A stretch of DNA of 64,000 nt from Rickettsiales bacterium (GCA_964231325.1 CAXRIF010000002.1:287138-351137); one strand, 5' to 3'; positions 9,341 through 64,000 are shown, counted from the stretch's first letter. A program made the numbers and translations. The notes: generated from the sequence alone by a model not told the origin.

Positions 9341-9760
9341 ATGTCCGCATGGTTAGCCCTAGTTCCCGCCGTTTCTGATCTGCTTGATAAGCTGATTCCC
9401 GACCCCGAAGCGCGCGAAAAAGCCAAGCTTGAGTTGCTTAAGGCCGAGCGCGAAACCGACCTTGAGGAGTTGCGCCTTGCCATCAGTGCTGACGCCATGC
9501 AGGCAGAGATCAATAAAAACGAAGCAACACACCGCACGCTATTTGTCGCAGGTTGGCGGCCATTCATTGGCTGGGTCTGTGGTGTGGCATTCGCCTATCA
9601 TTTTATCATCCAACCCATTGCCGCTTTTGCCATTGCCAATCAGGGCAGCGAAGTACATCTGCCTGACTTTGATATCGAAGCGTTATTTACGGTATTGATG
9701 GGCATGCTTGGTTTGGGCGGTCTGCGTACGATTGAAAAAATCAAAAACATCTCCAAGTAG
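9341..9760 (+). CDS. Holin of the 3-TM 'gene-transfer-agent release' type (PF11351-like, from memory)
   Basis: A 139-aa ORF. The N-terminal amphipathic region (DKLIPDPEAREKAKLELLKAERE) is followed by hydrophobic helices (WRPFIGWVCGVAFAYHFIIQPI, LFTVLMGMLGLGGL) and ends RTIEKIK. This architecture is as I recall it for GTA holins. Confidence 0.5.
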   Translation: MSAWLALVPAVSDLLDKLIPDPEAREKAKLELLKAERETDLEELRLAISADAMQAEINKNEATHRTLFVAGWRPFIGWVCGVAFAYHFIIQPIAAFAIANQGSEVHLPDFDIEALFTVLMGMLGLGGLRTIEKIKNISK

Positions 9761-25355: not shown

Positions 25356-26132
25356 ATGCGGTATCCATCATCCCAAAAAGGCTTCACCCTTATCGAGCTT
25401 TCGATCGTGCTCGTTATCATTGGCCTCATTTCTGGCGGCATCTTGTTCGGTCGTGATTTGATTAAAACAGCTGAACGCCGTGCCTTAATGCGTGATATTG
25501 AAAATTATCGCACTGCCATGCAAACCTTTAAACTTAAATATGGCTATATGCCCGGCGATATTCCGAACGCTACCCAAATCTGGGGGGAAAAACCAGGCGC
25601 AAATTGCGATAACCAAGTCGCAAGCGAAGGCTTGGAAACCTGTAATGGTGATGACAATGGACAGCTTACCTATGTACCCCCTACCTTGGGTAACTCCGAG
25701 GGCTGGTGCATATGGCAACACCTATCCAACGCTGAACTCATTGATGGTAGTTATACTTGTTCGGGCTACAGCAGCCCGACTTTCGGTAGCGGCGAAGGTA
25801 ATAGTGACTATCTGGCACGGTTTTACGCTGGCTATCAACCCGGCACTGACTTTTTCCCAACATATAATATGATAGGAAGAAATCTTTTGGTGGTACGAGG
25901 GCAAGGACTTAACTATCCAGCACTTAGAGCTGCTACCACCTATTATGTAGATTCCAAGGAAGATGACGGGTTTCCATTTATGGGCTCCGTGCAAACTGTT
26001 AATTATCTTGCCTTTCCTCCAGTTCATCATGTGCGGTTCGAAAATTGCACAACCGGCAGCGATACTGAAGCAAGATATAATATTCAAAATCAGGAAATTA
26101 ACTGTACACTCGGCACAAATTCCGGAATGTAA
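25356..26132 (+). CDS. Type IV pilin / pseudopilin-like protein, paralog 2 (258 aa)
   Basis: The prepilin signal is MRYPSSQKG|FTLIELSIVLVIIGLISGG. It shares the post-helix block (DLIK.AE.RA....Y..A..TF..KYG.MPGD) with the 10861..11733 pilin. Confidence 0.8.
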   Translation: MRYPSSQKGFTLIELSIVLVIIGLISGGILFGRDLIKTAERRALMRDIENYRTAMQTFKLKYGYMPGDIPNATQIWGEKPGANCDNQVASEGLETCNGDDNGQLTYVPPTLGNSEGWCIWQHLSNAELIDGSYTCSGYSSPTFGSGEGNSDYLARFYAGYQPGTDFFPTYNMIGRNLLVVRGQGLNYPALRAATTYYVDSKEDDGFPFMGSVQTVNYLAFPPVHHVRFENCTTGSDTEARYNIQNQEINCTLGTNSGM

Positions 26133-40506: not shown

Positions 40507-41581
40507 TTATTCTTCTTCTCATTCCACACATGTTAGTTGTAACGGCAAGCGTGTGTGTTGCCAATAGGGCAATGATAGGAACTGCCTCAAAAAACACCCT
40601 ATATTCCCCCGGTTTTCCAAATAGCATGTAAGAAACCCACATTAGCCCTACGACCCACAGCCCCTTACGAGCAAAAACCGGCTTTTCACGGAAGCGGAAG
40701 AACAACAAAAAAGCCCCCGCCAGCAGCAATAGATATGTTTGCCAGTGATATATGTTCCATAACACATCAAACTGCCATGTCTGATAGTCTGTCTTGAGGA
40801 ATACCCCAACATTGCTTGCAAACACGTAGCCAGTCACAATCTTCACCAGAGCAAGGGTCATGAATTGCGTAGTAAGATGTGTCAGTAGCTGTTTATGCTC
40901 CATGCGCCCAAACTGCCATATGGCAAACATGAGGGCGACAAATAAAGCTGATTCCTTGTTAACGCAGGCAAGCACAAACCATACATAATACCACCGCCAT
41001 TTTGCTGTATAGAGTGCGTAAAAACAGGCGGCCGTAAGCGCTAAGGTTGATGCATCATAAATATAGGCCACCCGACCCGCGAGTGGAGGTACCATGGCCA
41101 ACGCAACTAGCGGCACGCAGCGCGCGATGACAGGGTTATCCTTATAGAGCTGCCTGCCTAATTTATACATAGCCACTGTGAAACTGGCCATACAGCCTAA
41201 CATAAGCGACATAGCGACTAAGCGCATATAAAGCGTCTTTGTGTTGGCCATCGCCCGTTGCATACGTCGATCGGGTGGAAGCCAGGAATAATCCTGCCTT
41301 GCCAGCGCATCATTTACAGTATGTTCAATGGTTTCAGGGGTAAGTGCAACGATGGTTTTAACCGTGATGGGCATTAACACACGATACACATACGGGCGTT
41401 CAGCGGTACCCTCTACCATAGCGGGCAGGGTTGCTCCACGCCAGCTATCGCCCATATGAGAAGAGGACATAAGCGAGATAGCCGCCCATAGCGTAAACAA
41501 CACATAGAGCGCAAAGAACGCAATATTTACCGCGTAGCGTTTAAGCAATAGCCTGTCTTCCTGATGCTTGTTAAGTGCCAC
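40496..41581 (-). CDS. Polytopic membrane protein (361 aa), paralog of 39409..40506
   Basis: It has a GTG start at 41581 and about 10 TM helices. The C-terminal block is GKPGEYRVFFEAVPIIALLATHTLAV. It overlaps the downstream paralog by 11 nt. Confidence 0.6.
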   Translation of the reverse strand: MALNKHQEDRLLLKRYAVNIAFFALYVLFTLWAAISLMSSSHMGDSWRGATLPAMVEGTAERPYVYRVLMPITVKTIVALTPETIEHTVNDALARQDYSWLPPDRRMQRAMANTKTLYMRLVAMSLMLGCMASFTVAMYKLGRQLYKDNPVIARCVPLVALAMVPPLAGRVAYIYDASTLALTAACFYALYTAKWRWYYVWFVLACVNKESALFVALMFAIWQFGRMEHKQLLTHLTTQFMTLALVKIVTGYVFASNVGVFLKTDYQTWQFDVLWNIYHWQTYLLLLAGAFLLFFRFREKPVFARKGLWVVGLMWVSYMLFGKPGEYRVFFEAVPIIALLATHTLAVTTNMCGMRRRINDT

Positions 41582-43978: not shown

Positions 43979-44145
43979 GAACTTCTCCTTTAATGCTTGG
44001 ATGAAAAGCAAGTCGCGTGCCGAAATTATGAGTGCGACATAAATGTCGCAAAATGATGATTTTAATGTTTTATTAATAAGATTTGTGGTGTAAATACATA
44101 AACTACGCTATATGTAGTGGGTTAGTGTTGTTAAAAGTGGGTTGG

Positions 44146-45759
44146 ATGGTGTCACCATTTATGTATAAAGCACGCGTTACGTGCTGCTTTGGGTTGTTGT
44201 GCTTGGTTTCCAGCACGACCCTGTCGACGCCACTTCACGCTGAAACCCTGACCTATCGAAACAACACCCATGACAGCGTAAAAAGACACTCTTCAGTACG
44301 CAAACGTTTTGCCGAAAACCCATATGAGCAACGGCGTCAAGAAATCGAAAAACAGGCACAGCTCCCCTCACCTGAACTGCTTAAAACTGCGCCCGCCAAT
44401 GTGGCTAAAATTGCTCCTAAGGAACTATTGAAAAAGCGCGACCCTATGCGCATCACCATCCCTAACATAAAGGCTATGGAGGGCACTGCACTGCCTTCTC
44501 CTGATTTACTTACAAGCAATGGTGCCGCTCCCGCCCCATCCACTGTCAAACAACCCAAACCTTTGCTTGCAAAAGATGATCGTCCATCACGTACGGTGGC
44601 GGCATTCAAACCCTCTACTTATGCACCCGGAAATATTGCGGCAGATGAACTTGCAGCACTTGCTCCTGCGGCAGGTGGAGATGATAACAACACTCCACTT
44701 ATAGCAATTCCAGCGGATACCCCTCCTGCAGCTGCAGCCCCAACCAAACCCTCCGCTGCTCCAGCTCCACCACCCCCTACAACAACGCAAACTGCTTCCG
44801 TAGCAGAAGCCACCAAGGAAGAGGTTTCTGTCGGCGAGGCAATTAATGATGTATTGAAAGCAGAAGAACCTTACGAAGCTTACAATGAAGCAACACAAAA
44901 ATTGCCACCCATCACCCCTCAATCCACTACTGCAAAATCATCAGAGCCAGAGCAAAGCCTATCACGTGAAAGCAAAATGATATTGAAGCGTATTCCTTCT
45001 AATATCGCTCAGGATAAGCCTAAGCCGAAAGGGCCTTTCAACATTGATCGCAGCAAAGATCTTGAAGAAGCATTTGCTATGGATGAACCGCCAGCATCTA
45101 AAACGAGCTCCGATGAAGAAACTGCTTCTGTATCACACGAGGCTATGGGTATCAAAATTGAGATGAAAAGGCGCACGATCAACCTCGATTACGAGCTTGA
45201 GAAAGCCTATGATGCTTTGGTTACCGGCCAACCCACTCTTGCCATCGAAATTTACAAAAATATTCTATCAAATGACCCAAAGAATAAAGGTGGTTTATTT
45301 GGCCTTGCAACCACTTATCACCGTCTTGGCCAGCTTGATGCGGCGCGCAGCTACTACAGCAAATTACTTTCTATTGATCCCAAGCATCGTGATGGGCTGA
45401 ACAACTTCCTGGTATTGCTTGCTGATGAAGCCCCACAAGAAGCTCTTGCACAAATGGAAGAGCTCTCGAAACGCAACCCTAACTTCAGCCCAATTCAAGC
45501 ACAAATGGCTGTGATTTATCAGCGTCTGGGTAACACAGAAATGGCCACAGAAAAAATGTTCAAGGCCGTGGCAATGTCTCCTGAAAATCTGGTTTACCGC
45601 TACAATCTAGCTATCATGCTGGATTCTCAGAAGAAATATGACGAAGCTGAGAGGCTATACAAACAGCTGGTTAAATCGGCTATGCGCGGGGAAGTTATTC
45701 CCGGAAATCTACAAAAAATTCAGCAAAGATTAACCTTTATTAGCTCTAATAGTCACTAA
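44146..45759 (+). CDS. Secreted TPR-repeat protein with a Pro/Ala-rich linker (537 aa)
   Basis: It has a signal peptide (STPLHA-ET), a central low-complexity tract (PPAAAAPTKPSAAPAPPPPTTT) and C-terminal TPR units (AIEIYKNILSNDPKN..., AARSYYSKLLSIDPKH..., AERLYKQLV). It sits immediately upstream of pilT. The TTG at 44083 is an alternative start. Confidence 0.7.
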   Translation: MVSPFMYKARVTCCFGLLCLVSSTTLSTPLHAETLTYRNNTHDSVKRHSSVRKRFAENPYEQRRQEIEKQAQLPSPELLKTAPANVAKIAPKELLKKRDPMRITIPNIKAMEGTALPSPDLLTSNGAAPAPSTVKQPKPLLAKDDRPSRTVAAFKPSTYAPGNIAADELAALAPAAGGDDNNTPLIAIPADTPPAAAAPTKPSAAPAPPPPTTTQTASVAEATKEEVSVGEAINDVLKAEEPYEAYNEATQKLPPITPQSTTAKSSEPEQSLSRESKMILKRIPSNIAQDKPKPKGPFNIDRSKDLEEAFAMDEPPASKTSSDEETASVSHEAMGIKIEMKRRTINLDYELEKAYDALVTGQPTLAIEIYKNILSNDPKNKGGLFGLATTYHRLGQLDAARSYYSKLLSIDPKHRDGLNNFLVLLADEAPQEALAQMEELSKRNPNFSPIQAQMAVIYQRLGNTEMATEKMFKAVAMSPENLVYRYNLAIMLDSQKKYDEAERLYKQLVKSAMRGEVIPGNLQKIQQRLTFISSNSH

Positions 45760-45798
45760 CGCACAACTCCCGTGCAGTTTTGATTCACAGGGGCTAAC

Positions 45799-46923
45799 AT
45801 GGAAATCACTGACCTGCTCGTATTTACGCAAAAGAACAATGCGTCCGACTTACATTTGGCATCTACTAATCCGCCAATTTTGCGTATCCACGGCGAAATG
45901 ATGCCCTATAAATCACCTCCCCTTACTTCTGATGATATTAAACGCATGCTCTATTCCATTATGACAGAGCAGCAGCGCGCTGATTATGAGCGCGACTTTG
46001 AAATCGATTTTGCGATATCTTTTGGTGAGGAAATGCGTTTTCGTGTCAACGCATTTAATACATTGAATGGCCCCGCAGCTGTGTTGCGTACTATTCCAAA
46101 TCGCATTCTGTCTATGGAAGAACTAGGTACGCCTGAGGTGCTAAAAAAGCTATGTTATCTACATAAGGGACTGATTCTGGTAACAGGCCCTACCGGCTCT
46201 GGTAAGTCCACCACACTTGCCGCCATGATCGACCATATCAATACTAACGAAGCTAAGCACATTATCACTATTGAAGATCCGGTGGAGTTTGTACATCAAT
46301 CTAAAAAATCCCTGATCAATCAACGCGAAGTAGGCAAAGACACCAAGTCATTTGCCAAGGCACTCCGTTCCGCGTTGCGTGAGGATCCCGATGTGATTCT
46401 GGTGGGTGAGTTACGTGATATCGAAACCATTCAACTTGCGTTGACCGCAGCGGAAACAGGCCACTTGGTGATGGGCACGTTGCACACCAACTCAGCACCG
46501 AAGACTATTGACCGTATTATCGACGTATTCCCGGCAAATGACAAAGAAATGGTACGCGCCATGCTTTCCGTATCACTGGAGGCAGTAATCACCCAATCAC
46601 TTCTTAAACGCAAAGATGGTGGCCGTGTAGCTGCTCATGAAATCATGCTGGGAACTGGTGCAGTGCGCAACCTCGTGCGTGAAGGCAAAGTGCCACAGCT
46701 TTACTCACTCATTCAAATCGGCAGTAAAATTGGTATGAGAACCATGAAAGACAGCATCATGGCGCTATTTGAGGAAGGCATCATTACAGAGCAAACGGTG
46801 CGTGCAGCTATGGCTACCAGCACCTCGGAAGATGAAGGAGAAACCGAAACACCAAAAACGGATAACAAGGCAGGCAATAACAAGCGCACCAGCGGTGTAA
46901 GGCCTGTTCATAGCGGATTCTAG
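45799..46923 (+). CDS. pilT: Type IV pilus retraction ATPase PilT
   Basis: It has Walker A (GPTGSGKSTT), the Asp box, Walker B (ILVGELRD) and the His box (GHLVMGTLHTNSA). The PilT-typical N-terminus is LLVFTQKNNASDLHL. Confidence 0.95.
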   Translation: MEITDLLVFTQKNNASDLHLASTNPPILRIHGEMMPYKSPPLTSDDIKRMLYSIMTEQQRADYERDFEIDFAISFGEEMRFRVNAFNTLNGPAAVLRTIPNRILSMEELGTPEVLKKLCYLHKGLILVTGPTGSGKSTTLAAMIDHINTNEAKHIITIEDPVEFVHQSKKSLINQREVGKDTKSFAKALRSALREDPDVILVGELRDIETIQLALTAAETGHLVMGTLHTNSAPKTIDRIIDVFPANDKEMVRAMLSVSLEAVITQSLLKRKDGGRVAAHEIMLGTGAVRNLVREGKVPQLYSLIQIGSKIGMRTMKDSIMALFEEGIITEQTVRAAMATSTSEDEGETETPKTDNKAGNNKRTSGVRPVHSGF

Positions 46924-46927
46924 CAAC

Positions 46928-48061
46928 ATGGAAATGAACGCCAATAGTTTACTGCAAGGATTTACCGATAAGGATGCCACCGATCTTTATCTCACAGTAG
47001 GCGCCCCTCCTTCTTTGCGTTATGGTCACCGCATCGAACACATAGATAAAACTAAGCTTACCGAAGAGCATGTTAAAAGCTTTTTGAAAGAAATTGTGTC
47101 CTCCGATGTGTTGGAAGAGTTTGAATCTACCTTGGAATATAACACCGCGATCAACTGGCCGGAACTGGGGCGTTTTCGCGTTAATATGTTCCGCCAGCGT
47201 CAGAACACTGGTGTCGTATTACGTCGTATTCGCACTGATATCCCTTCTATTGAATCGCTAAATCTGCCGCCGCTTTATTCCGACCTTATCATGGAAAAAC
47301 GTGGTTTGATATTAGTGGTAGGCCCTACCGGTTCGGGGAAATCAACTTCACTGGCAGCCATGCTAGAGTATCGTAATAATAATGGTTCTGGCCATATTGT
47401 AACCATTGAAGATCCAGTAGAATTTGTTCTCGAACATAAGAACTGTATCATTACACAGCGTGATGTCGGTATTGATACTTATTCGTTCGGCATCGGCCTA
47501 AAAAACACTCTACGCCAGACACCCGACGTTATCGTGATTGGTGAGATCCGCGACAGAGAAACTATGGAACATGCCATTGTGTTTGCTGAAACCGGCCATC
47601 TATGCCTTGCTACATTGCATGCCAATAATGCTAACCAAGCCATTGAGCGTGTAATCAATTTCTTCCCTGAAGAGAAACATGCGCAAGTATTGTTAAATCT
47701 ATCACTTAACCTGAAGGCAATTCTCTCACAACGTCTACTTCCTAACCTGCAAGGTACACGTTCTATTGCACTAGAGATCATGCTCAATCAAGGCCTAGTG
47801 AAAAGCCTGATCCATGAGGGGCGCATTAAAGAACTTAAGGAATGTATTGAAAAAGGTCAGGATGTCGGCATGCAGAGTTTCGATCAGGCGTTGGTTGAGA
47901 TGTATGCTAATGGCGTTATCACCGAGGATGTCGCTCTGGCAGAATCTGATAACCCCGCCAACTTACGCCTTGCCATTAAACAGCATGATATGGGCAAAGG
48001 CCAAGGCCCGCTCCGTAGCCTCGCCCAAGATATGGGCATCATTAATAAGCAACAGTTCTAA
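46928..48061 (+). CDS. pilU: PilT-family ATPase, PilU-like
   Basis: This is a second PilT paralog (GPTGSGKSTS, IVIGEIRD, GHLCLATLHANNANQAIERV), starting 4 nt after the pilT stop. Confidence 0.85.
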   Translation: MEMNANSLLQGFTDKDATDLYLTVGAPPSLRYGHRIEHIDKTKLTEEHVKSFLKEIVSSDVLEEFESTLEYNTAINWPELGRFRVNMFRQRQNTGVVLRRIRTDIPSIESLNLPPLYSDLIMEKRGLILVVGPTGSGKSTSLAAMLEYRNNNGSGHIVTIEDPVEFVLEHKNCIITQRDVGIDTYSFGIGLKNTLRQTPDVIVIGEIRDRETMEHAIVFAETGHLCLATLHANNANQAIERVINFFPEEKHAQVLLNLSLNLKAILSQRLLPNLQGTRSIALEIMLNQGLVKSLIHEGRIKELKECIEKGQDVGMQSFDQALVEMYANGVITEDVALAESDNPANLRLAIKQHDMGKGQGPLRSLAQDMGIINKQQF

Positions 48062-48802
48062 CTACGCTGCTTTTTTCGCTTCATCTTTAGAAATAGAGTT
48101 CAGGAAGGCTTTCTCCAGCGAATCATCCTGATACTGTTTTTTGAATTCTGCTGGTGTGCCAATAAAGAATAATTTGCCTTCATGAATCACCCCAATACGA
48201 TCGCAAATTTCGTCAATGTCAGAGAGAATATGTGAGCTAAAGAATATCGTTTTATCGCGTGTGCGCGCATCTATGAGCATGTTTTTAAGCTTAATACGCG
48301 CGCTAGGGTCCAGCCCACTCATCGGTTCATCTAAAATAAGCAAACGCTCATCTATCATAAATGCACCAAGTAAACCCAACTTTTGTCCCATCCCTTTGGA
48401 ATATGAGCCTACCCGTGCATCAAGCACATTGGGATCCAAATCTAACGCTACCGCATTTTCTTTTGCCTGCTCTCGGTCCAGTTTCTTGCCGTAGTATGAT
48501 AGTGCCAAGGTCAGATATTCCATCCCCTTCAGGTAACGCGATGGCTGGAACTTTTCTGGCAAGTACGACAGATGTTTACGCGCACTAATACTAGTAGAGG
48601 CAATATCAAAAATTGATGTTTTCCCTTTATCGGCCTTCACCAAATCAAGGGCTATTTTAATCAAGGTAGTTTTTCCTGCACCGTTCAGGCCGATCAGTCC
48701 AAAAATCTCGCCCGGATTTAGCGAAAAGCTAATATCCTCAAGTACCTTACGTTCATCATATTTTTTGTGTACGCCATCTATAGATAATGGGGAATGACTC
48801 AT
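48062..48802 (-). CDS. ABC transporter ATP-binding protein (ABC-2/DrrA-like), with no adjacent permease
   Basis: It has Walker A (GLNGAGKTT), the signature motif (YSKGMGQKL) and Walker B (LLILDEP). It is the last gene of the pilB operon, and its stop abuts the pilU stop. Confidence 0.9.
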   Translation of the reverse strand: MSHSPLSIDGVHKKYDERKVLEDISFSLNPGEIFGLIGLNGAGKTTLIKIALDLVKADKGKTSIFDIASTSISARKHLSYLPEKFQPSRYLKGMEYLTLALSYYGKKLDREQAKENAVALDLDPNVLDARVGSYSKGMGQKLGLLGAFMIDERLLILDEPMSGLDPSARIKLKNMLIDARTRDKTIFFSSHILSDIDEICDRIGVIHEGKLFFIGTPAEFKKQYQDDSLEKAFLNSISKDEAKKAA

Positions 48803-48804
48803 AT

Positions 48805-49602
48805 TTACTCCTTTACCTCGTCACCTTCTCCTGAGCCCAACTTAGAATACGCGTCAATCAACCCGCCCAAACCTGTTCGAGATGGATCATCATCCTCTTG
48901 GTTAAAAAATGGATCTCCTGAATCTACAGGAGAAGGATCTAGAACCTCTGAAGGTGGTTCCAACGAAATATTGTGTGTATCAACAGTTACTGGCTGTACC
49001 TTACCTTCCAGTATATTCATTACATAAGAAGAAAAGGTCTGATTTACCCTAAGTGTAAAGATCACCTCTCCTCTGCGCTTATATACTTCAACGTTATCAT
49101 TTTCCATTTTCTGCCAGGTCTCATTTACCTTGTGCATAGAGACCGGTTTCCATTTCAGGCGAACCATATCCTCATTGATCTCCATCACACTCAGATCGGT
49201 ATTCTCCATTGGGCTGCTTTGTGTCAATTTCTGCCCATTAACCCATATAATCCAGTTATCTTCCGCATGGTAAACGATAGATTCCAAAAAGAATTGTGGG
49301 TATTTATAATAACGGTTTGTTTCCTGCGCTTTTCTGATACCCGTAAGACGATTGAGAAAATCTTCTTCATCAAAACCACCGTCATCTCTGCGGCCCGACG
49401 AATTTTTCTTATATATATTCATCGCATAATTAATATCTGCCGTTTCTTCTGGTGTAAAAAACAGGCTTCCTATCTTTATTGGCTCATTATTGTTTTCAGG
49501 TAGCGTTTCACTATTTGCAGACGGTGCGCTCTGCGCATTAGCAGCACCAGACGTCAGCATCAAACAAGCACAAAGCAGAGCTATATGGCGAACAACTACC
49601 AT
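48805..49602 (-). CDS. Secreted protein (265 aa), PilP/GspC-HR-like by pattern
   Basis: It has a signal peptide (GAANA-QS). The block LESIVYHAEDNWIIWVNGQKL...DLSVMEINEDMVRLKW resembles the beta-domain pattern of PilP/GspC. The C-terminus is acidic. Confidence 0.45.
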   Translation of the reverse strand: MVVVRHIALLCACLMLTSGAANAQSAPSANSETLPENNNEPIKIGSLFFTPEETADINYAMNIYKKNSSGRRDDGGFDEEDFLNRLTGIRKAQETNRYYKYPQFFLESIVYHAEDNWIIWVNGQKLTQSSPMENTDLSVMEINEDMVRLKWKPVSMHKVNETWQKMENDNVEVYKRRGEVIFTLRVNQTFSSYVMNILEGKVQPVTVDTHNISLEPPSEVLDPSPVDSGDPFFNQEDDDPSRTGLGGLIDAYSKLGSGEGDEVKE

Positions 49603-50285
49603 CTGCGGCGCCTTCCTCTGCGTTTACGTGACTGTTCCTGACGTTTAGCCTCCTCTGGATCAAGTGAGTTTATACCATACCACTTAAAATTGATGGTACT
49701 CTCAACCAGGTTATAACTTCCATTCTGGGTAATAGAACGTAACGCTTCATCTGTTAGGCCACTTACACGTTCTAGCTGTATTCCAGTAAAGCTTACCGCT
49801 CCAGGATAGTTTTCCTGTATATCCCGCATAAAGCGATATACATCTTCATCATTCGCTGCCTGAAAGCGCAGAGTGGCATCTGTAGTCATCAACACACTGG
49901 TTTTACGCTTGTATTTTGCATCCTCATGTGCAGTCGGTTCGGCAATATTTAATTGGGTCTCTCCACCAACAAGATTATGTGTGTATTCGTATTCTCTATT
50001 TAAGTGATCCGCTATTCCCATTGTGTGGGAAAGCATATCCTCTTCATTAAGGCGCATCACTTTTTCATATAGATCAATATCATTTTGTACACGTATATAT
50101 TTTTCACGAAGCCCATTTGTTTCGTTAGTAACGGCACTTACCTGTGCCTCCATATTTCTTTTTCTTGAAATATACTCATCTTGCATGGTGCTAATAAAAT
50201 ACGTACCGCCACCTATTACAGCCAGAATAGCTCCTGCAAAACTACCCTCGAAAATCAGCTGTCTTTTTAACTGCTGAAACTTCAT
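49596..50285 (-). CDS. Bitopic membrane protein (229 aa), PilO-like by architecture
   Basis: It has a short cytoplasmic N-terminus, one TM helix (FAGAILAVIGGGTYFI), a predicted coiled coil and an alpha/beta domain (ATLRFQAANDEDVYRFMRDIQENYPGAVSF). Its start overlaps the upstream stop (ATGA). Confidence 0.45.
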   Translation of the reverse strand: MKFQQLKRQLIFEGSFAGAILAVIGGGTYFISTMQDEYISRKRNMEAQVSAVTNETNGLREKYIRVQNDIDLYEKVMRLNEEDMLSHTMGIADHLNREYEYTHNLVGGETQLNIAEPTAHEDAKYKRKTSVLMTTDATLRFQAANDEDVYRFMRDIQENYPGAVSFTGIQLERVSGLTDEALRSITQNGSYNLVESTINFKWYGINSLDPEEAKRQEQSRKRRGRRRRW

Positions 50286-52057
50286 GGCGCATTCCCCTCT
50301 GAAGGTGAACTTACAGGCTCTTCTGGTGCTGGCACTAGCGGCCCATAAATCATCAGCGTTTCTTCAACCGGCTCTGCATTCGTAATGTCCCCTGGCATCG
50401 GAATAGCCTCATTAGCTGAACTAATGCTTAACTGTCTTCCCGCTCTTTCAATATCTGCTAACGATTTTTCTGCCTCTACTTCGTAACCCGGCAACTTTCT
50501 GCGGAAATCACCCATGATACGATTCAACACAAATCTACGAGCCTTACTATCAGATACAACGGCAGGGAGCTCTACAACCAACGTTACCGTTACCCATTTA
50601 TTTTTTGAGTCACCTGCTTTTGCCGTTTGCATACGTTGTAGAGCCACAGGATCAATATTTCTTGGTAAGCGCATCCTGCCATCTTGCTTATCAACCTGTA
50701 TTGAGATGGATTTCAATGTCATTGGCGGCACAATCAATGGCTTAATCTTTTCGATCAACGGTAATAGCGTATCATTTTCTTCCTGAAGATATTTATATAG
50801 GTCAATCAGATCGGTTGCTTTTTCTACATCCAGATTTTTGCGTGCTATTTCGTTTTTGAGTGCCGTGAGTGTATTTTGCTCGGTCTTTTTTTGTCGTTCG
50901 AGCCGCTCTAAATCACCGCTGATACCCATAATATCAGCCCCCATGTATCCCGAATAGCCAATCATCCCAACCGTCCCTACTACCGTTACCAAACGAAGCA
51001 AAACCTTCAGGTTAAATGCTGTATCTATTTTTTTGTATTCCGGAACAGCAAGGGTAAGGCGGTGCCTTTTTGCACAACCAATAATAGAGGCAAGCACCAC
51101 ATCACCAAACTGATCGGTGGCTTGCGTCGCTCCCTCTATATTGAAAAATTGTGCCATTTCAAATGGCGTGAATACCTGCGTACTACTTGCAGAAAATTTT
51201 TGCGTATCGATGGCATCCTTAATGCCTGCCGAGGCCAGAATATAGATATCCAGCCCTGCTTGCGGGTTATAAGAAAGGCGCTTCATATATTCAATAGTCG
51301 AGAGTATTTCCTGCTCAATACTGCCCGTTATTACTTCGGTATTTGTTTCGCCAAGCGGTTGCGCCAGACGGGTAAATACGATTTTGCCTTTATGCAGTAT
51401 AACCTGGCGGAACCCTCCCACTTTGTTATGACTAACAAAGAATTTCCATTCTGCACCCGTACCCTCTTTAGGCACGCCAATAGCTTTTTCCAGCGTTTTG
51501 AGAAATATTTCAGTTTCAGCTGAAATAAGATGAATGCCCTTAAAGCGATTGGGCAGCTCCATGACAAAGTCTAACCACACCGATAGTTGCGGGCTGCGCT
51601 CCAGCGCAATCATCATGAAGTTCCAGTCCTTGCGGCCTGTTTTTTCACGCCCCAGTATCATCGCCCCTTTAATATCCTCTGGGCCAAAATCACGATCCAA
51701 CCTGCGTTTCACCAGCTTGCCAACGCTCATCGCCGAAACAGGTGGCAAGGTTTGCTGCACGTAGGATTGATCCATACTATCGATCACTAAAAGCACTGGG
51801 GCTTTAGGGTCTTTTTCAATCGTCTGCTTTAATTCTTCAAGGTTTTGTTCGCTGGCATCCGGACAGAACTGGCGACTGAGCACCTGATTATCCTTGATAT
51901 AAACAAGAATTGCACCTTCATCGCCAATGAAAAAGACAAAACGCGTCCCCTTCGCTGCCCTGAATACCTTACCTTTAGGGGGCACGCGCTCAGCGGTGTT
52001 CTTGGTTTCCGCTTCCTTTTTATCTTTCTTAAGGCGTTTTTTAAAACTAAAGGCCAT
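50282..52057 (-). CDS. PilM-PilN fusion-like / GspL-like protein (591 aa)
   Basis: The ATG at 52057 has a GGAG Shine-Dalgarno. A cytoplasmic domain of about 370 aa (FVFFIGDEGAILVYIKDN..., actin/PilM-like pattern) is followed by one TM helix (LLRLVTVVGTVGMIGYSGYM), a coiled coil and a periplasmic domain. Confidence 0.5.
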   Translation of the reverse strand: MAFSFKKRLKKDKKEAETKNTAERVPPKGKVFRAAKGTRFVFFIGDEGAILVYIKDNQVLSRQFCPDASEQNLEELKQTIEKDPKAPVLLVIDSMDQSYVQQTLPPVSAMSVGKLVKRRLDRDFGPEDIKGAMILGREKTGRKDWNFMMIALERSPQLSVWLDFVMELPNRFKGIHLISAETEIFLKTLEKAIGVPKEGTGAEWKFFVSHNKVGGFRQVILHKGKIVFTRLAQPLGETNTEVITGSIEQEILSTIEYMKRLSYNPQAGLDIYILASAGIKDAIDTQKFSASSTQVFTPFEMAQFFNIEGATQATDQFGDVVLASIIGCAKRHRLTLAVPEYKKIDTAFNLKVLLRLVTVVGTVGMIGYSGYMGADIMGISGDLERLERQKKTEQNTLTALKNEIARKNLDVEKATDLIDLYKYLQEENDTLLPLIEKIKPLIVPPMTLKSISIQVDKQDGRMRLPRNIDPVALQRMQTAKAGDSKNKWVTVTLVVELPAVVSDSKARRFVLNRIMGDFRRKLPGYEVEAEKSLADIERAGRQLSISSANEAIPMPGDITNAEPVEETLMIYGPLVPAPEEPVSSPSEGNAP

Positions 52058-52282
52058 TTTACTCCACATCCGGATACGCATATGTTGTAGCTGTATTTGC
52101 AATGATTTTCAACGAATATTGCAGAAAAATCATCAACATAATCCTTACCGAAGCCGTTACCTGTGATTCGCTAGCCTGTAGCAAATGCGAAGCGTTATTG
52201 AGAACCACCACGCAAGCGTACTGATCGGTACGCGCGTAGTGGAAGCGCAAATAACGCAAGTAAGTTCCTCAGGATAGTAGAA

Positions 52283-53485
52283 TTAGAATTTCATTTTGCT
52301 GAAGGATTCGTAAAGCGGCCCGAATACTGCGGCAATCACCCAGAAAATAATAATCCCCATCACCACAGTAAGTGCAGGCTGGATCATACCCACCATCGAA
52401 TCCACCGCATCATTGACTTCACGGTTATAGAAAAAGTTAATGTTTTCGAGTGCGTCAGACATATTACCGCTATCTTCGCCCACCTTAAACATGCGGATTA
52501 CCAGATTGGGGAAATGATTGGAAATTCGCAATGCAGCAGTTAACGAGCTTCCCTCTGTCACATTCGTTTTCACCAGCTCAATCGATTCTTTTAGCACGCG
52601 ATTGGAAACCACACCTTTAGCGGCCTCTAGTGAATCCAGAATGTCGATACCGCTATTGAACATCACCGAGAAAAAGTGCGTGAAGCGCGCCATATCAATC
52701 TTGCGGATAACGGGTCCAATTACCGGCATCTTCAACATAAACGCGTCCATTTTATAGGCAAAGCTTTCTGAGAACCGGTACGCCACTAATATTAAAACGA
52801 CGAACATGACAGGCGTGCCCAAAATGTAATACCAGTAATTCTCAAAAGCATATGAAACAGCGATCAATGCACGTGTATGCATGGGTATTTCAAACCCTTG
52901 CGACATAATAAAGTCGACCAATTTTGGTACTACCGCAATCATAAGCACAGTTACTACGATGGAAATAACCACAATGAGCGCGATAGGGTAGCGTGTTGCT
53001 TTTTTTACCTTACGGCGAATCTCGGCAGACCACTTCAAATGCTCTGCAAGATGCGTAAAAGACTCTGAAAGGTTACCTGTTTTTTCACCTGCAGCGACCA
53101 ACCCCACAAATACATCGTTGAACACTTTGGGGTAATTAGCCAGCGCCTGCGAAAGCATATTACCATTCTTCACTGACTCGTAAACGCCAGTCAGAACGTC
53201 ACGTAATTTCGGTGATTCGCTGGAATCACGCACATCCGCCAACGCATCATGCAGTGGTACACCCGCCCTATCGAGCTGTTCCAAATGCATACATAATACG
53301 ATCATATCTTTGAGCTTAATACTGCCAAAACGTGATGAACGTTTGGCAACCACCTCGCGTGCATCAATGAGATCCAGACCTAGTTCCTTGAGGCGGGATT
53401 CAAGATCAAGCTCGTTATCCGCTACCACAACGCCGCGCATCTTGCGCCCTGCAGCATTCATCGCGGTATAGTTATATGCGGGCAT
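52283..53485 (-). CDS. pilC: Type IV pilus platform protein PilC (GspF family)
   Basis: A 400-aa ORF with duplicated GspF domains and 3 TM helices. Its start overlaps the pilB stop (TAATG). Confidence 0.9.
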   Translation of the reverse strand: MPAYNYTAMNAAGRKMRGVVVADNELDLESRLKELGLDLIDAREVVAKRSSRFGSIKLKDMIVLCMHLEQLDRAGVPLHDALADVRDSSESPKLRDVLTGVYESVKNGNMLSQALANYPKVFNDVFVGLVAAGEKTGNLSESFTHLAEHLKWSAEIRRKVKKATRYPIALIVVISIVVTVLMIAVVPKLVDFIMSQGFEIPMHTRALIAVSYAFENYWYYILGTPVMFVVLILVAYRFSESFAYKMDAFMLKMPVIGPVIRKIDMARFTHFFSVMFNSGIDILDSLEAAKGVVSNRVLKESIELVKTNVTEGSSLTAALRISNHFPNLVIRMFKVGEDSGNMSDALENINFFYNREVNDAVDSMVGMIQPALTVVMGIIIFWVIAAVFGPLYESFSKMKF

Positions 53486-55302
53486 TACAATCGATCCGTA
53501 AGGTCAATAGTGTTAATGAGCTCTTCTAACGTAATCTCCCCGGCCAATACTTTCTCAATACCGTCTTGTTGCATGGTCACAAAACCGTTCTCAAGCGCAT
53601 GCTCCATCATTTGCTTACGTGTAGCATGGGTAGAGATTAGCTCTTCCATAGTGCGGTCAATGCGCAGAATCTCAAGAATAGCAACACGCCCTTTAACACC
53701 TTTACCACCGCATTCCTCGCAACCAACCTTATCATAGATTGTAGGGGGCTTAGCGGCATCGACTCCAAGAATTTTGCACTCTTCTTCTGTAGCAGTTCGT
53801 GATTTGCGACAGGATTTACACAACTTTCGCGCCAAACGCTGCGCCAAACAACCAATCAACGAGGTAGCAAGTAGGTGACCCGGCACGCCAATATCACCTA
53901 AACGCGGAATTGCACCAAGTGCATCATTCGTGTGGAGTGTGGTAAATACCTGGTGACCGGTAAGTGCCGCACGCACGGCCATCAACGCCGTGTCCTCGTC
54001 ACGCACCTCACCAATGAAGATGATGTCGGGATCCTGACGCATCAACGATTTAATACCGTTGAGGAAGTCCATACCACTACCTTCACGCACACTACTCTGG
54101 CGAATAAGTGGCAGTTGATATTCCACCGGATCTTCCAACGTCATGATGTTAGTTTCAATATCATTGATGTAGCTCAACACCGAATAAAGCGTGGTGGTCT
54201 TACCCGAACCAGTAGGACCCGTTACGATGATAATCCCTTCCGGTCGCTTGAGCAGTTTTTTAAGGACATCACTATTATGTTCGGAGAATCCAAGTTTTTC
54301 GAGAGGTACAAGTGACTTGGTTTTATCCAAAAGACGCATCACGATGTTCTCGCCATGCACGGTGGGTTGCGTTGCCACACGAAAATCAACTTCACGACCA
54401 AGCACGTTGTATGAAATACGACCATCTTGCGGGTTGCGCGTTTCTGCGATGTTCATGCTCGACATAATTTTGATACGTACCACCATCGCCGACCAATAAT
54501 CACGGTGGAACGAACGTACCTGCAACATTTGCCCATCAATACGGTAGCGCAAACGAAGGAAAGTACCTTCCGGTTCAAAGTGAATATCCGATGCGCCCTG
54601 CTTGATCGCATCTACCAAAAGCGCATTCACCAAACGTACTGTCGGGTTTACATAGCCTTCCTGACGGCCATCCAGCTTTGTATTTTCACGGATACCGGTT
54701 TCAATTTCTTTTAAAATACCATCAACAGAAATTTCATAGTCATAATACTGATCGACCATTTCCAGAATTTCTGATTCTGTACAATAGATCGGTACAATTT
54801 TGGTATTACGTGGCACATGGCGACGCACCTGATCGATCGCCAATACGTTGTATACGTCGGCCATAGCCAATTTCAGCACATCATTTTCATACGAAACCGG
54901 AATCACCTTATGGCGCGTGGCCATTTCCTTGGGTATAAGCTGAATGATTGATGCATCCAGCATGGTCGCTTTCGGATCAAACTTCTCAGTACCGGATGAT
55001 TCAGCCAATACCTCACCCAGCGCGGACTCCGTAATGAACCCCATATCCACCAGAATGGCACCGAATAGCTTTTTTGATGTTTTTTGTTCGGTCAGTACGA
55101 TCTGCAACTGGTCATCAGAAATAAGCCCCAGATGCACCAGCTTCTCACCAAGACGCATAGGTGGCTTGCCCTTACTTTCACCTTCCGCAGCGGGTGGTGG
55201 TGTTTGAGTTGAGTCTATCGCAGCTGCAGCAGCCTCTGCTGGGATTTCTTCTACTTTCCCTTCAGCGTCTTTTGCGGATTTATTGTTTTTTTCAGCAGGC
55301 AT
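53485..55302 (-). CDS. pilB: Type IV pilus assembly ATPase PilB (GspE family)
   Basis: It has an N-terminal T2SSE_N/MshEN-like domain (LGEKLVHLGLISDDQLQIVLTEQK), Walker A (GPTGSGKTTT) and Walker B (IFIGEVRD). The tetracysteine motif is CKSC...CEEC. Confidence 0.9.
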   Translation of the reverse strand: MPAEKNNKSAKDAEGKVEEIPAEAAAAAIDSTQTPPPAAEGESKGKPPMRLGEKLVHLGLISDDQLQIVLTEQKTSKKLFGAILVDMGFITESALGEVLAESSGTEKFDPKATMLDASIIQLIPKEMATRHKVIPVSYENDVLKLAMADVYNVLAIDQVRRHVPRNTKIVPIYCTESEILEMVDQYYDYEISVDGILKEIETGIRENTKLDGRQEGYVNPTVRLVNALLVDAIKQGASDIHFEPEGTFLRLRYRIDGQMLQVRSFHRDYWSAMVVRIKIMSSMNIAETRNPQDGRISYNVLGREVDFRVATQPTVHGENIVMRLLDKTKSLVPLEKLGFSEHNSDVLKKLLKRPEGIIIVTGPTGSGKTTTLYSVLSYINDIETNIMTLEDPVEYQLPLIRQSSVREGSGMDFLNGIKSLMRQDPDIIFIGEVRDEDTALMAVRAALTGHQVFTTLHTNDALGAIPRLGDIGVPGHLLATSLIGCLAQRLARKLCKSCRKSRTATEEECKILGVDAAKPPTIYDKVGCEECGGKGVKGRVAILEILRIDRTMEELISTHATRKQMMEHALENGFVTMQQDGIEKVLAGEITLEELINTIDLTDRL

Positions 55303-63827: not shown

Positions 63828-64000
63828 TTATAATGTATTATTGATAATAAAACCTATATTCCAGAAATAGTTAGAAATTTCTGGATAGACCACCAATAGC
63901 CATAATGATGCTGCCAGAGCTGGCCCGAATGGGAAGATAGCACCCTTGCCCATCAAGCGCCACAAAAGACCGAAAACAACACCGAGCAAACCTGAAAAGA
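63828..64000 (-). CDS. pilD: Prepilin peptidase (A24 family), C-terminal 56 codons (the 5' end is off the window)
   Basis: This is my own translation: ...FSGLLGVVFGLLWRLMGKGAIFPFGPALAASLWLLVVYPEISNYFWNIGFIINNTL*. It aligns well with the PilD C-terminus (...VGAVLGVIML.L.....IPFGPYLAIAGWIALLW). Confidence 0.55.
   Translation of the reverse strand, partial: FSGLLGVVFGLLWRLMGKGAIFPFGPALAASLWLLVVYPEISNYFWNIGFIINNTL

What the first reader, a model, noticed from the sequence alone, without database searches (positions are those of the whole stretch)
44146..55302. Secretin-less type IV pilus-like machine built from two convergent operons
Seen: a (+) unit of TPR protein, pilT and pilU converges with zero spacing (stops at 48061 and 48062) on a (-) operon. 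That operon reads pilB, pilC, a 591-aa gene, a 229-aa gene, a 265-aa gene and an ABC ATPase. Its genes are joined by 1-7 nt overlaps or a 2-nt gap, apart from a 225-bp gap after pilC. No ORF in this locus or elsewhere in the 64 kb looks like a PilQ/GspD secretin. The pilins (10861, 25356) and a prepilin peptidase fragment (63828) are scattered. Established: canonical T4aP systems carry pilMNOPQ, and alphaproteobacteria mostly use Tad/Cpa pili, which lack PilT. Inference: this is a retractile T4aP/T2SS-hybrid-like apparatus whose envelope-spanning part is non-canonical and probably poorly described.
Basis: partly seen in the sequence, partly recalled or inferred. Interest (0 to 1): 0.75.

Follow-up and report, generated by a model that had tools for sequence, protein, structure and literature searches.

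The report
Divergent type IV pilus machine, secretin elsewhere
This is the core gene cluster of a retractile type IV pilus in an uncultured Rickettsiales-like bacterium; its three "unknown" genes are very divergent versions of the usual inner-membrane scaffold, and the outer-membrane secretin thought to be missing is encoded on another contig of the same genome.

Summary
The gene layout is exactly as described. The "secretin-less" reading is refuted. A 626-aa MshL-like secretin (P0366) lies in the same assembly (GCA_048537145.1, contig JBLYPR010000032.1), and in the same second assembly and read set that hold the window.

The three unknown ORFs have no Pfam or NCBIfam hit, but they are pilus parts:
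- The 591-aa protein is a PilM-like actin-fold domain (Foldseek to P. aeruginosa PilM, E 3.7e-11) fused through one TM helix to a PilN-like periplasmic part, which is the GspL architecture.
- The 229-aa protein is its PilO/GspM-like paralogue (hhalign prob 88.5%).
- The 265-aa protein is a secreted beta-domain protein with weak but convergent GspB/GspC-HR/PilP signals.

PilB carries an MshE-type c-di-GMP-binding N-domain. The convergent genes are a true PilT and a PilU-like paralogue.

PilB-PilC-591-229-265-ABC is conserved in about 66 species-level MAGs. The ABC ATPase follows the 265-aa gene in 54 of 56 loci. The secretin is always followed by a 252-aa ABC-2-type permease and a roughly 240-aa protein. 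This suggests a PilGHI-like ABC transporter split between the two pilus loci.

Type IV pili in basal Rickettsiales are already published. New here are the hidden scaffold and the split ABC link.

The parts
53485..55302 (-). Extension ATPase (PilB/GspE/MshE-like, 605 aa). It has an N-terminal MshEN c-di-GMP-binding domain and a tetracysteine motif.
   Evidence: Pfam T2SSE 6.7e-124 and MshEN 7e-16. NCBIfam: GspE 511.9 bits, PilB 507.3 bits (both below cut-off); MshE-related c-di-GMP motif NF053729 61.6 bits, above its cut-off of 38. RLGxxLVxxGLIxxxxLxxxLxxQ motif and CxxC...CxxC seen in the sequence. 38% identity to Aeromonas MshE and 40.7% to E. coli GspE.
52283..53485 (-). Inner-membrane platform protein (PilC/GspF/MshG-like, 400 aa).
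   Evidence: Pfam T2SSF 5.4e-55, two repeats. NCBIfam GspF 319.6 bits, below the cut-off of 424. 28.6% identity to Aeromonas MshG.
50282..52057 (-). 591-aa PilM-PilN fusion with GspL-like architecture. It has a cytoplasmic actin-like domain (about aa 35-340), one TM helix, a coiled coil and a periplasmic alpha/beta domain.
   Evidence: No Pfam or NCBIfam hit. AlphaFold2 mean pLDDT 78, N-domain mostly above 90. Foldseek against PDB: P. aeruginosa PilM 5eou E 3.7e-11, T. thermophilus PilM 2ych, M. xanthus T4aP machine PilM 3jc8, FtsA, GspL/EpsL cytoplasmic domains 4pht and 1yf5. Hydrophobic segment at about aa 348-370. More than 331 homologues, all unnamed.
49596..50285 (-). 229-aa bitopic PilO/GspM-like protein: N-terminal TM, coiled coil and a periplasmic domain. 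It is a paralogue of the C-terminal half of the 591-aa protein.
   Evidence: The family profile aligns to the periplasmic part of the 591-aa family (hhalign prob 88.5%, E 2.7e-6). Weak match to Aeromonas MshI2, a PilN-family protein (prob 41%). No Pfam hit in 53 family members. No structure model was made.
48805..49602 (-). 265-aa secreted periplasmic protein with a conserved AxA|Q signal-peptidase site. It has a beta-domain of the PilP/GspC-HR/GspB type and is the presumed connector to the secretin.
   Evidence: AlphaFold2 beta-domain at aa 98-208 with pLDDT above 90. Foldseek hits are weak but specific: GspB 4wfw (prob 1.00, rmsd 2.4 A over 49 columns, E 0.09), GspC-HR bound to GspD N0 3oss_C (prob 0.93), PilP 4av2_M. 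Pfam T2SSB hits 8 of 56 family members, best E 0.0026. 1396 cluster representatives at E<=1e-3.
48062..48802 (-). Orphan ABC-2-type ATP-binding subunit (246 aa) with no permease in the operon. It is a constant last gene of the operon.
   Evidence: Pfam ABC_tran 9.1e-22. NCBIfam DrrA subfamily 154 bits and GldA 139 bits, both below cut-off. It follows the 265-aa gene in 54 of 56 loci, median gap 11.5 nt. Candidate partner: the 252-aa ABC2_membrane_2-like protein next to the secretin.
46928..48061 (+). PilU-like retraction ATPase paralogue (377 aa).
   Evidence: TIGR01420 PilT/PilU family 422.4 bits against a cut-off of 319. Walker A present, but the AIRNLIRE motif is replaced by GLVKSLIHE.
45799..46923 (+). 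PilT retraction ATPase (374 aa).
   Evidence: TIGR01420 480.2 bits against a cut-off of 319. AVRNLVRE motif present. NCBI name 'type IV pilus twitching motility protein PilT'.
44146..45759 (+). Secreted TPR protein: signal peptide, long Pro/Ala-rich linker and a C-terminal TPR block of about 180 aa. It is a positional and compositional analogue of MshN, PilF/PilW or Tgl.
   Evidence: TPR Pfam families at aa 372-535. Sub-threshold NCBIfam hits to PilW (56 bits) and Tgl. 25% identity over 201 aa to Aeromonas MshN, E 2.4e-7. Sequence read. Linked to PilT-PilU in about 25-28 of 66 loci.
25356..26132 (+). Type IV pilin (258 aa).
   Evidence: Pfam N_methyl 9e-8. KG|FTLIELSIVLVIIGLI N-terminus. phmmer hit to E. 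coli GspG, E 1.7e-4.
10861..11733 (-). Type IV pilin (290 aa).
   Evidence: LLG|FTLIELSIVLVIIGLI N-terminus read directly. Its tblastn hits in L003, L031 and L039 fall at the same positions as those of the 258-aa pilin. No Pfam hit at E<=0.001.
63828..64000 (-). 3' end of the prepilin peptidase gene (PilD); the gene runs off the window.
   Evidence: The C-terminal peptide ...FPFGPALAASLWLLVVY* was read. The full 256-aa product with A24_N_bact and Peptidase_A24 domains is seen on the longer contig (L070 9164-9934).

Best explanation
The locus encodes the cytoplasmic and inner-membrane core of a retractile type IV pilus. The pilus is a deep branch near the MSH and T2SS families and occurs widely in uncultured, mostly aquatic Rickettsiales-like alphaproteobacteria.

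Proposed mechanism:
- PilB is an extension ATPase whose MshE-type N-domain should bind c-di-GMP. It works with the PilC platform to polymerise pilins, which are encoded at scattered sites and matured by PilD.
- The motor is held in register with the outer membrane by a divergent alignment complex. The 591-aa PilM-PilN fusion acts like GspL: its cytoplasmic actin-like domain docks the ATPases.
- The 229-aa PilO/GspM-like partner pairs with the periplasmic half of the 591-aa protein.
- The secreted 265-aa PilP/GspC-HR/GspB-like protein reaches the N-terminal domains of an MshL-like secretin. That secretin is encoded elsewhere in the same genome (P0366, contig JBLYPR010000032.1).
- PilT and a PilU-like paralogue, encoded convergently with a secreted TPR protein, retract the fibre.
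- The operon's last gene, an orphan ABC-2 ATPase, probably pairs with the 252-aa ABC-2 permease (and the roughly 240-aa protein) that always follows the secretin gene. This would resemble M. xanthus PilGHI.

Shown here: gene content, folds of two of the three unknowns, conservation, and the presence of the secretin in the genome. Inferred: all protein contacts, c-di-GMP control, and the ABC pairing.
For: - Domain and family scores for PilB, PilC, PilT, PilU, ABC and TPR.
- PilM fold of the 591-aa protein.
- Paralogy of the 229-aa protein with the C-terminal part of the 591-aa protein.
- GspB/GspC-HR/PilP signals for the 265-aa protein from two independent methods.
- The organism is diderm: LptF/LptG, PagL and an RND pump.
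- The operon is conserved in 66 GTDB species loci and 53 metagenome loci.
- The MshL-like secretin P0366 lies in GCA_048537145.1, GCA_041254985.1 and SRR28144566, the same sources as the window. Its best NCBIfam match is pilus_MshL at 199.9 bits.
- The secretin lies directly next to the operon in L084. It lies on the same contig as the operon in JAOAUZ010000003.1.
- Secretin-252aa-~240aa is conserved in 5 of 5 contexts examined.
- The 252-aa protein matches ABC2_membrane_2 in 3 of 3 homologues.
- Published tables show one mshL-annotated secretin family co-distributed with PilB and PilC in Rickettsiales. These include TOBG_RS-372, whose contig is my locus L035 (PMC9352585 Supplementary Data 4).
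Against: - No sequence-level similarity links the three unknowns to reference PilM/N/O/P, GspL/M/C/B or MshI/J/K.
- The 265-aa assignment rests on sub-threshold hits (Foldseek E about 0.1; Pfam E 0.0026 in 8 of 56 members).
- The 229-aa protein has no structure model.
- PilB, PilC and the secretin all score below the NCBIfam equivalog cut-offs, so no named subfamily fits.
- No piliation, twitching or c-di-GMP binding has been observed; the organism is uncultured.
- The ATPase-permease pairing is guilt by association only.
- The secretin sits on a different contig, so its assignment to this genome rests on binning. It is, however, reproduced in two assemblies and one read set.
Confidence: 0.75

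Rival explanations
1. One reading: a truly secretin-less pilus or secretion machine in a diderm, which crosses the outer membrane through some non-canonical conduit.
For: No secretin lies in the 64-kb window, in 10 kb on either side, or within 10 kb of the operon in the 66 GTDB species loci. Among the 53 metagenome loci only L084 has one nearby.
Against: An MshL-like secretin is encoded in the same assemblies and read set as the window. Relatives carry it on the same contig or adjacent to the operon. The 265-aa protein has the fold type that binds secretin N0 domains. Published orthogroup tables show secretin co-distributed with PilB and PilC.
Confidence: 0.03
2. The apparatus is functionally a type II secretion system that exports folded proteins by a short pseudopilus. 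The adjacent PilT and PilU would then serve something else.
For: PilC matches GspF best and PilB matches GspE marginally best. The 591-aa and 229-aa proteins have GspL/GspM architecture. The closest cultured relatives of PilB are in T2SS-like operons ordered E-F-pseudopilins-PilMN fusion-GspM-hypothetical-GspD on Skermanella and Acidisoma plasmids.
Against: PilT and PilU-like genes abut the operon in about 25-28 of 66 species. There is no GspG-K pseudopilin set in the operon. The pilins are large (258 and 290 aa) and scattered. Schon et al.'s table shows a hugely expanded pilin family in Mitibacteraceae. The secretin matches MshL (199.9 bits) far better than GspD (106.7 bits).
Confidence: 0.1
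3. The ABC ATPase is a passenger gene kept by synteny and has nothing to do with the pilus. The 252-aa permease next to the secretin would pair with another ATPase.
For: No direct evidence of pairing exists. ABC ATPases are abundant. NCBIfam places it only in broad DrrA/GldA-like groups below cut-off. Other neighbours (DHODH, CysNC) are also syntenic in subsets of loci.
Against: The ATPase stays glued to the 265-aa gene in 54 of 56 loci, even where PilB-PilC or the flanks differ. It has no permease beside it in any locus. The secretin-linked ABC-2 permease has no ABC-2 ATPase beside it in 5 of 5 contexts. In L084 the ATPase and secretin genes are adjacent. M. xanthus PilGHI is a precedent (PMC6060248).
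Confidence: 0.35

Closest known systems
MSHA (mannose-sensitive haemagglutinin) type IV pilus of Vibrio and Aeromonas (MshE, G, I, J, K, L, M, N, with PilT for retraction)
   Same: The extension ATPase has an MshEN c-di-GMP-binding domain. The secretin's best family match is MshL. A TPR protein is present, as MshN is. PilM/PilN-like (MshI), PilO-like (MshJ) and a small periplasmic protein are present. Retraction uses PilT.
   Different: All equivalog scores are below cut-off. No sequence similarity to Aeromonas MshI1, MshJ or MshK was detectable, apart from a weak match of the 229-aa profile to MshI2 (prob 41%). No ExeA-like MshM AAA+ ATPase is seen; an ABC-2 ATPase sits in the operon instead. 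The genes are split over at least four loci rather than two adjacent operons. Gene order differs.
Type II secretion system inner-membrane assembly platform (GspE-F-L-M-C with GspD, plus GspA/B)
   Same: The 591-aa protein has GspL architecture: an actin-like cytoplasmic domain, a TM helix and a periplasmic domain. The 229-aa protein resembles GspM. The 265-aa protein carries a GspC-HR/GspB-type beta-domain. PilC matches GspF best. The gene order E-F-L-M-(C-like) matches T2SS-like operons on alphaproteobacterial plasmids.
   Different: PilT and PilU are present and linked. No GspG-K set is in the operon. The cytoplasmic domain is full-size PilM-like and matches PilM better than GspL. The 265-aa protein has a cleavable signal peptide instead of GspC's TM anchor and PDZ domain. 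The secretin is MshL-like, unlinked, and replaced in the operon by an ABC ATPase.
Canonical T4aP (PilBCD, PilMNOPQ, PilT/U) of Pseudomonas, Myxococcus and Thermus
   Same: Same functional parts list. PilT and PilU are bona fide family members. The PilM fold is present. The M. xanthus pil cluster also includes an ABC transporter (PilGHI).
   Different: PilM and PilN are fused. The N/O/P-equivalents are undetectable by Pfam. The secretin is not PilQ-type (93 bits against a cut-off of 284) and is not in a pilMNOPQ operon. PilB is only 33.6% identical to Neisseria PilF.
Type IV pili reported in basal Rickettsiales (Mitibacteraceae, Athabascaceae; Schon et al. 2022, Castelli et al. 2024) and 'incomplete type IV pili' of Holosporales
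   Same: Probably the very same system. TOBG_RS-372 (Mitibacteraceae) carries this operon (locus L035). The published tables list PilB, PilC, PilD, PilT/U, pilins and an mshL-annotated secretin.
   Different: In the published table canonical PilM/N hits are confined to Athabascaceae. The three proteins characterised here, and the ABC-2 transporter link, are not named in the parts of those papers that I read.

Membership tests
Type IVa pilus (T4aP) | PilT-type retraction ATPase | tested here: met
   TIGR01420 scores 480.2 and 422.4 bits against a cut-off of 319.1. The first copy has the AVRNLVRE motif.
Type IVa pilus (T4aP) | PilB equivalog extension ATPase and PilC platform | tested here: not met
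   TIGR02538 PilB scores 507.3 bits against a cut-off of 675.65. The PilC models score 250 and 243 bits against a cut-off of 700.
Type IVa pilus (T4aP) | PilM, PilN, PilO and PilP alignment complex | tested here: inconclusive
   The PilM fold is met by structure. PilN/PilO-like topology and paralogy are seen. PilP-like beta-domain signals are weak. The Pfam and NCBIfam scans returned no pilus-assembly family for any of the three.
Type IVa pilus (T4aP) | PilQ-type secretin | tested here: not met
   The genome's secretin P0366 scores 93.1 bits against TIGR02515 (cut-off 284.35) and matches MshL better.
MSHA pilus | MshE-type ATPase with a c-di-GMP-binding MshEN domain | tested here: met
   Pfam MshEN 7e-16. 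NF053729 scores 61.6 bits against a cut-off of 38. The motif was read. The domain also occurs in some PilB and GspE proteins (own knowledge), so it is not exclusive.
MSHA pilus | MshL secretin | tested here: inconclusive
   TIGR02519 is the best hit at 199.9 bits but lies below its cut-off of 250.2. JGI names homologues MshL. KEGG mshL annotation appears in PMC9352585.
MSHA pilus | MshI, MshJ, MshK, MshM (ExeA-like AAA+) and MshN | tested here: not met
   hhalign of the three family profiles against Aeromonas MshI1, MshJ and MshK gave probabilities of 0.5% or less. Only the 229-aa profile against MshI2 reached 41%. No AAA_22/ExeA-like gene is in the loci examined. The TPR protein is similar to MshN only over its TPR repeats.
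Type II secretion system | GspE and GspF equivalogs | tested here: not met
   TIGR02533 scores 511.9 bits against a cut-off of 630.25. TIGR02120 scores 319.6 bits against a cut-off of 424.
Type II secretion system | GspL/GspM/GspC assembly platform | tested here: inconclusive
   The architecture matches, and the GspL cytoplasmic domains 4pht and 1yf5 are fold hits. Sequence comparison with E. coli GspL, GspM, GspC and GspB was not significant.
Type II secretion system | GspG-K pseudopilin set, GspD secretin, and no retraction ATPase | tested here: not met
   No pseudopilin set is in the operon. The secretin scores 106.7 bits against GspD (cut-off 351). PilT and PilU are adjacent.
ABC-2 (type V) exporter, PilGHI/GldAFG-like | ABC-2-type ATPase plus a 6-TM ABC-2 permease acting together | tested here: inconclusive
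   ATPase: ABC_tran 9.1e-22, with DrrA and GldA hits below cut-off. Permease candidate: PF12679 in 3 of 3 homologues, best 26.3 bits against a gathering score of 27.2. Pairing is inferred only from the reciprocal linkage of each half to a pilus locus.

The most novel reading that the evidence does not exclude
The pilus machine of this clade depends on a dedicated ABC-2 transporter whose two halves have been distributed between the two core pilus loci. The ATPase is the last gene of the PilB-PilC-scaffold operon. The permease and a conserved, W-rich protein of about 240 aa lie directly after the secretin gene. The transporter would then be an integral, co-evolving module of the machine, for example for pilin or secretin maturation or for export of a pilus-associated lipid or glycan, rather than a neighbour. 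Together with the Pfam-invisible PilMN/O/P scaffold, this would define a distinct, previously unmodelled subtype of type IV filament system. That subtype could explain why such systems are scored 'incomplete' in Rickettsiales and Holosporales surveys.
Probability: 0.35. Interest if true: 0.55.

Novelty: new variant of a known kind. Interest (0 to 1): 0.35.

Why it matters
Type IV pili are used as a marker trait when the free-living ancestry of the Rickettsiales is reconstructed, and surveys of related symbionts report 'incomplete' pili.

The missing PilM/N/O/P functions turn out to be encoded by a large, unannotated protein family set. It includes more than 1300 cluster representatives for the 265-aa protein alone. 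The secretin is MshL-like and unlinked. Together these facts mean the systems are probably complete and functional. They also give concrete sequences from which to build detection models.

The reciprocal linkage of an orphan ABC-2 ATPase and an orphan ABC-2 permease to the two pilus loci gives a second natural example, after M. xanthus PilGHI, in which to ask what an ABC transporter does for a type IV pilus.

For the scan itself, the main lesson is negative. Absence of a secretin from 64 kb is not evidence of a secretin-less machine.

Tried and rejected
- Pfam and NCBIfam on the three unknowns gave nothing. Scanning every family member individually gave only T2SSB for the 265-aa family.
- Profile searches against PDB sequences gave only coiled-coil and Ig-like noise.
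- hhalign of the family profiles against single reference sequences was not significant. The references were E. coli HofM/N/O/P and GspL/M/C/B, Aeromonas MshI1/I2/J/K, and the Skermanella and Acidisoma PilN-domain, GspM and hypothetical proteins. The one exception was the 229-aa profile against MshI2.
- Rfam found no family in the whole window. Promoter and terminator scans found nothing above shuffles. The 225-bp gap after PilC holds no convincing small ORF.
- Secretin searches of the window, of 66 loci and of both flanks were negative. The breakthrough came only from the metagenome scan.
- One literature search (Deianiraea, pilus, PilQ) returned nothing relevant. The Castelli 2024 supplements held no component table.
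- A second cluster look-up returned no accessions.
- I considered that neighbouring large ORFs in related loci might be outer-membrane parts and rejected it. They are a pyridine-nucleotide-disulphide oxidoreductase family protein, CcmF, an FG-GAP protein, malic enzyme, MutS and an M23 peptidase.
- I did not build a proper PilB/PilC/PilT phylogeny. Only pairwise and HMM scores were available, because no balanced reference set could be fetched.

Full report
**1. Observation**

The ORF map reproduces the finding exactly.

Plus strand:
- a TPR protein (ORF 44083..45759, with ATG codons at 44146 and 44161);
- a PilT-family ATPase (45799..46923);
- a second PilT-family ATPase (46928..48061).

Minus strand:
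- an ABC ATPase (48062..48802);
- a 265-aa ORF (48805..49602);
- a 229-aa ORF (49596..50285);
- a 591-aa ORF (50282..52057);
- PilC (52283..53485);
- PilB (53485..55302).

The convergent stop codons abut at 48061/48062. The junctions are overlaps of 1, 4 and 7 nt and a 2-nt gap. A 225-bp spacer follows PilC.

Pfam and NCBIfam confirm T2SSE, T2SSF, ABC_tran and TPR and return nothing for the three unknowns. Both pilins have G|FTLIELS prepilin N-termini. The prepilin peptidase at the right edge is real and complete on a longer contig.

No secretin is detectable in the window with E. coli GspD/HofQ, Aeromonas MshL or alphaproteobacterial GspD as queries. None lies in the 10 kb beyond either end. 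The organism is a diderm, with LptF/LptG, PagL and an RND pump.

**2. Source and distribution**

The window is part of contig JBLYPR010000034.1 (434,846 bp) of MAG GCA_048537145.1, labelled 'Rickettsiales bacterium'. The three unknowns are annotated as hypothetical proteins.

The 591-aa protein has more than 331 homologues, all unnamed. Sixty-six GTDB species representatives carry it. All are uncultured MAGs, mostly labelled Rickettsiales or Alphaproteobacteria. A further 53 metagenome contigs carry it too.

The order PilB-PilC-591-229-265-ABC is kept almost everywhere. The ABC ATPase follows the 265-aa gene in 54 of 56 loci, with a median gap of 11.5 nt. The convergent TPR-PilT-PilU unit is present in about 25-28 of the 66 loci, with a median of 3 nt between the convergent genes.

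One of these loci (L035) is from TOBG_RS-372, a member of the Mitibacteraceae of Schon et al. 2022.

**3. The three unknowns**

*The 591-aa protein.* AlphaFold2 with a 36-sequence alignment gave a confident N-terminal domain (aa about 35-340, pLDDT mostly above 90). Its best PDB matches were:
- P. aeruginosa PilM (5eou, E 3.7e-11);
- T. thermophilus PilM-PilN (2ych);
- the PilM chain of the M. xanthus T4aP machine model (3jc8);
- FtsA;
- the cytoplasmic domains of GspL/EpsL (4pht, 1yf5).

This domain is followed by one hydrophobic helix, a long coiled coil and an alpha/beta periplasmic domain. The protein is therefore a PilM-PilN fusion, which is the GspL architecture.

*The 229-aa protein.* Its family profile aligns to the periplasmic half of the 591-aa family (hhalign probability 88.5%, E 2.7e-6). 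PilN/PilO and GspL-C/GspM pairs show the same kind of relationship (established knowledge).

*The 265-aa protein.* It has a conserved AxA|Q signal-peptidase site and a well-predicted beta-domain (aa 98-208). Foldseek matches are weak in E-value but specific: Dickeya GspB (4wfw; probability 1.00, rmsd 2.4 A), the GspC HR domain bound to GspD N0 (3oss_C) and PilP (4av2_M). Independently, 8 of 56 family members hit Pfam T2SSB (best E 0.0026). I read it as the PilP/GspC-type connector to the secretin, with moderate confidence.

*Limits.* Sequence comparison with single references found no significant similarity for any of the three. The references were E. coli Hof and Gsp proteins, the Aeromonas Msh proteins fetched, and the Skermanella and Acidisoma plasmid T2SS-like operons. 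This explains why annotation pipelines miss these proteins.

**4. The motors**

PilB scores almost equally against GspE (511.9 bits) and PilB (507.3 bits), below both cut-offs. It carries an MshE-type c-di-GMP-binding motif above its cut-off, and the motif is readable in the sequence.

PilB identities to reference ATPases:

| Reference | Identity |
|---|---|
| Aeromonas MshE | 38% |
| E. coli GspE | 40.7% |
| Skermanella plasmid GspE-like ATPase | 38.8% |
| Neisseria PilF | 33.6% |

PilC matches GspF best. The two plus-strand ATPases pass the PilT/PilU family cut-off. The first has the AIRNLIRE-type motif and is PilT. The second lacks it and is PilU-like.

**5. The secretin**

The metagenome scan produced one short contig (L084) in which the operon is followed, convergently, by a 689-aa secretin (Pfam Secretin 5.7e-31; phmmer to MshL 9.8e-30).

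With that protein as query, 512 homologues were found. Most of the 120 listed carry Secretin_N_2 plus Secretin domains (the rest Secretin alone), JGI names many 'MshL', and several NCBI entries read '[Rickettsiales bacterium]'.

One of them, P0366 (626 aa), is encoded on contig JBLYPR010000032.1 of GCA_048537145.1. It is also in GCA_041254985.1 and in read set SRR28144566. These are the same two assemblies and the same sample that contain the window. Its best NCBIfam match is pilus_MshL (199.9 bits against a cut-off of 250.2), ahead of GspD (106.7 bits) and PilQ (93.1 bits).

In MAG GCA_025464625.1 the secretin and the operon lie about 67 kb apart on one contig. In GCA_964645205.1 they lie on two contigs. 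Two secretin homologues share locus-tag prefixes (SFW63 and SFT92) with two 591-aa homologues, which places each pair in a single MAG.

This agrees with Schon et al.'s Supplementary Data 4. There, one gene family annotated K12282 mshL is present once in every Rickettsiales genome that has PilB and PilC, including TOBG_RS-372. Canonical PilM/N and PilQ families occur only in Athabascaceae. The 'secretin-less' inference is therefore refuted.

**6. A second locus and the ABC link**

In all five secretin contexts examined, the secretin gene is followed by a 252-aa protein and a protein of about 240 aa. Both are 66-73% identical between MAGs whose 591-aa proteins share only about 40-47% identity with the query.

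The 252-aa protein is polytopic and matches Pfam ABC2_membrane_2 over the same region in 3 of 3 homologues (E 5.3e-6, 0.0042 and 0.3). No ABC-2 ATPase lies beside it. Conversely, the operon's ABC-2-type ATPase never has a permease beside it.

I infer, without direct evidence, that the two form one transporter split between the two pilus loci. This would be comparable to the PilGHI genes of the M. xanthus pil cluster. That comparison rests on PMC6060248 and on my own recollection of Wu et al. 1998. The protein of about 240 aa (TM helix plus a W-rich domain) has no detectable relatives.

**7. Comparison, novelty and verdict**

The system works like a T4P/MSH-type pilus with a T2SS-like (GspL/M/C-style) assembly platform. 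It fails the equivalog tests of T4aP, T2SS and MSH alike, so I do not file it in any named subfamily.

Type IV pili in basal Rickettsiales, and 'incomplete' pili in Holosporales, are already in the literature (PMC9352585, PMC10847448, PMC9992710). Three things appear to be undescribed:
- the identification of the hidden scaffold proteins;
- the conserved two-locus organisation;
- the reciprocal ABC-2 linkage.

I rate it a new variant of a known kind, with interest 0.35. The striking claim (no secretin) is wrong. What remains is a useful annotation insight and one testable oddity.

Noticed in passing
L135 7888-9365 (GCA_048537145.1 contig JBLYPR010000032.1, not in the window): Two very conserved genes always follow the MshL-like secretin. 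One is a 252-aa polytopic protein with sub-threshold ABC2_membrane_2 hits. The other is a roughly 240-aa protein with one TM helix, a W-rich (KWWWL) domain and no detectable relatives. DsbB and COQ7 precede the secretin in 3 of the 5 full contexts, and COQ7 also precedes it in L084.
   Followed up: partly
window 39409-41581 (- strand): Two tandem paralogous polytopic membrane proteins (365 and 361 aa) share a GxPGEYRVFF motif and have no Pfam hit. One of them forms an ORF cluster that recurs in 7 loci, in six of them within a few genes of the MlaD-domain and DUF2155 genes.
   Followed up: no
window 13585-14787 (+ strand): A 400-aa ORF with no Pfam family at E<=1e-4 and no obvious signal peptide. 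It lies between an enoyl-CoA hydratase gene and small ORFs.
   Followed up: no
window 10861-11733 and 25356-26132; PMC9352585 Supplementary Data 4: The two pilins are unusually large (290 and 258 aa) and unlinked to the machine. Schon et al.'s table lists a pilin gene family (0244Y) expanded to 57, 11, 6, 23 and 48 copies in five Mitibacteraceae genomes. Whether these two pilins belong to that family was not tested.
   Followed up: no
window 26136-27110 (- strand): A XerC/XerD-type tyrosine recombinase (Phage_integrase plus SAM_1) ends 3 nt after the 258-aa pilin gene, convergent with it.
   Followed up: no
window 35812-38205 (+ strand): RpoD is 797 aa. Region 1.1 starts only at about aa 182, so there is a long N-terminal extension of low-complexity appearance.
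   Followed up: no
window 52058-52282: The 225-bp spacer between PilC and the 591-aa gene has no Rfam match, no consensus promoter or terminator, and only a doubtful 66-aa TTG ORF. A spacer of variable length (median about 47 nt by longest-ORF calls) occurs at this junction in relatives.
   Followed up: partly
L076 12127-23407 and L077 13968-25617 (Skermanella and Acidisoma plasmids): Cultured Rhodospirillales carry plasmid-borne T2SS-like operons ordered GspE-GspF-pseudopilins-'PilN domain' (a 344-403-aa PilM-N fusion)-GspM-hypothetical-GspD. This is the same order as the window's operon, except that a secretin sits where the window has the ABC ATPase.
   Followed up: partly
window 9341-9760 and 9862-10362: A GTA_holin_3TM-family gene and a PagL lipid A deacylase gene lie next to the RF3 gene, according to the precomputed Pfam hits on the matching contig.
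   Followed up: no
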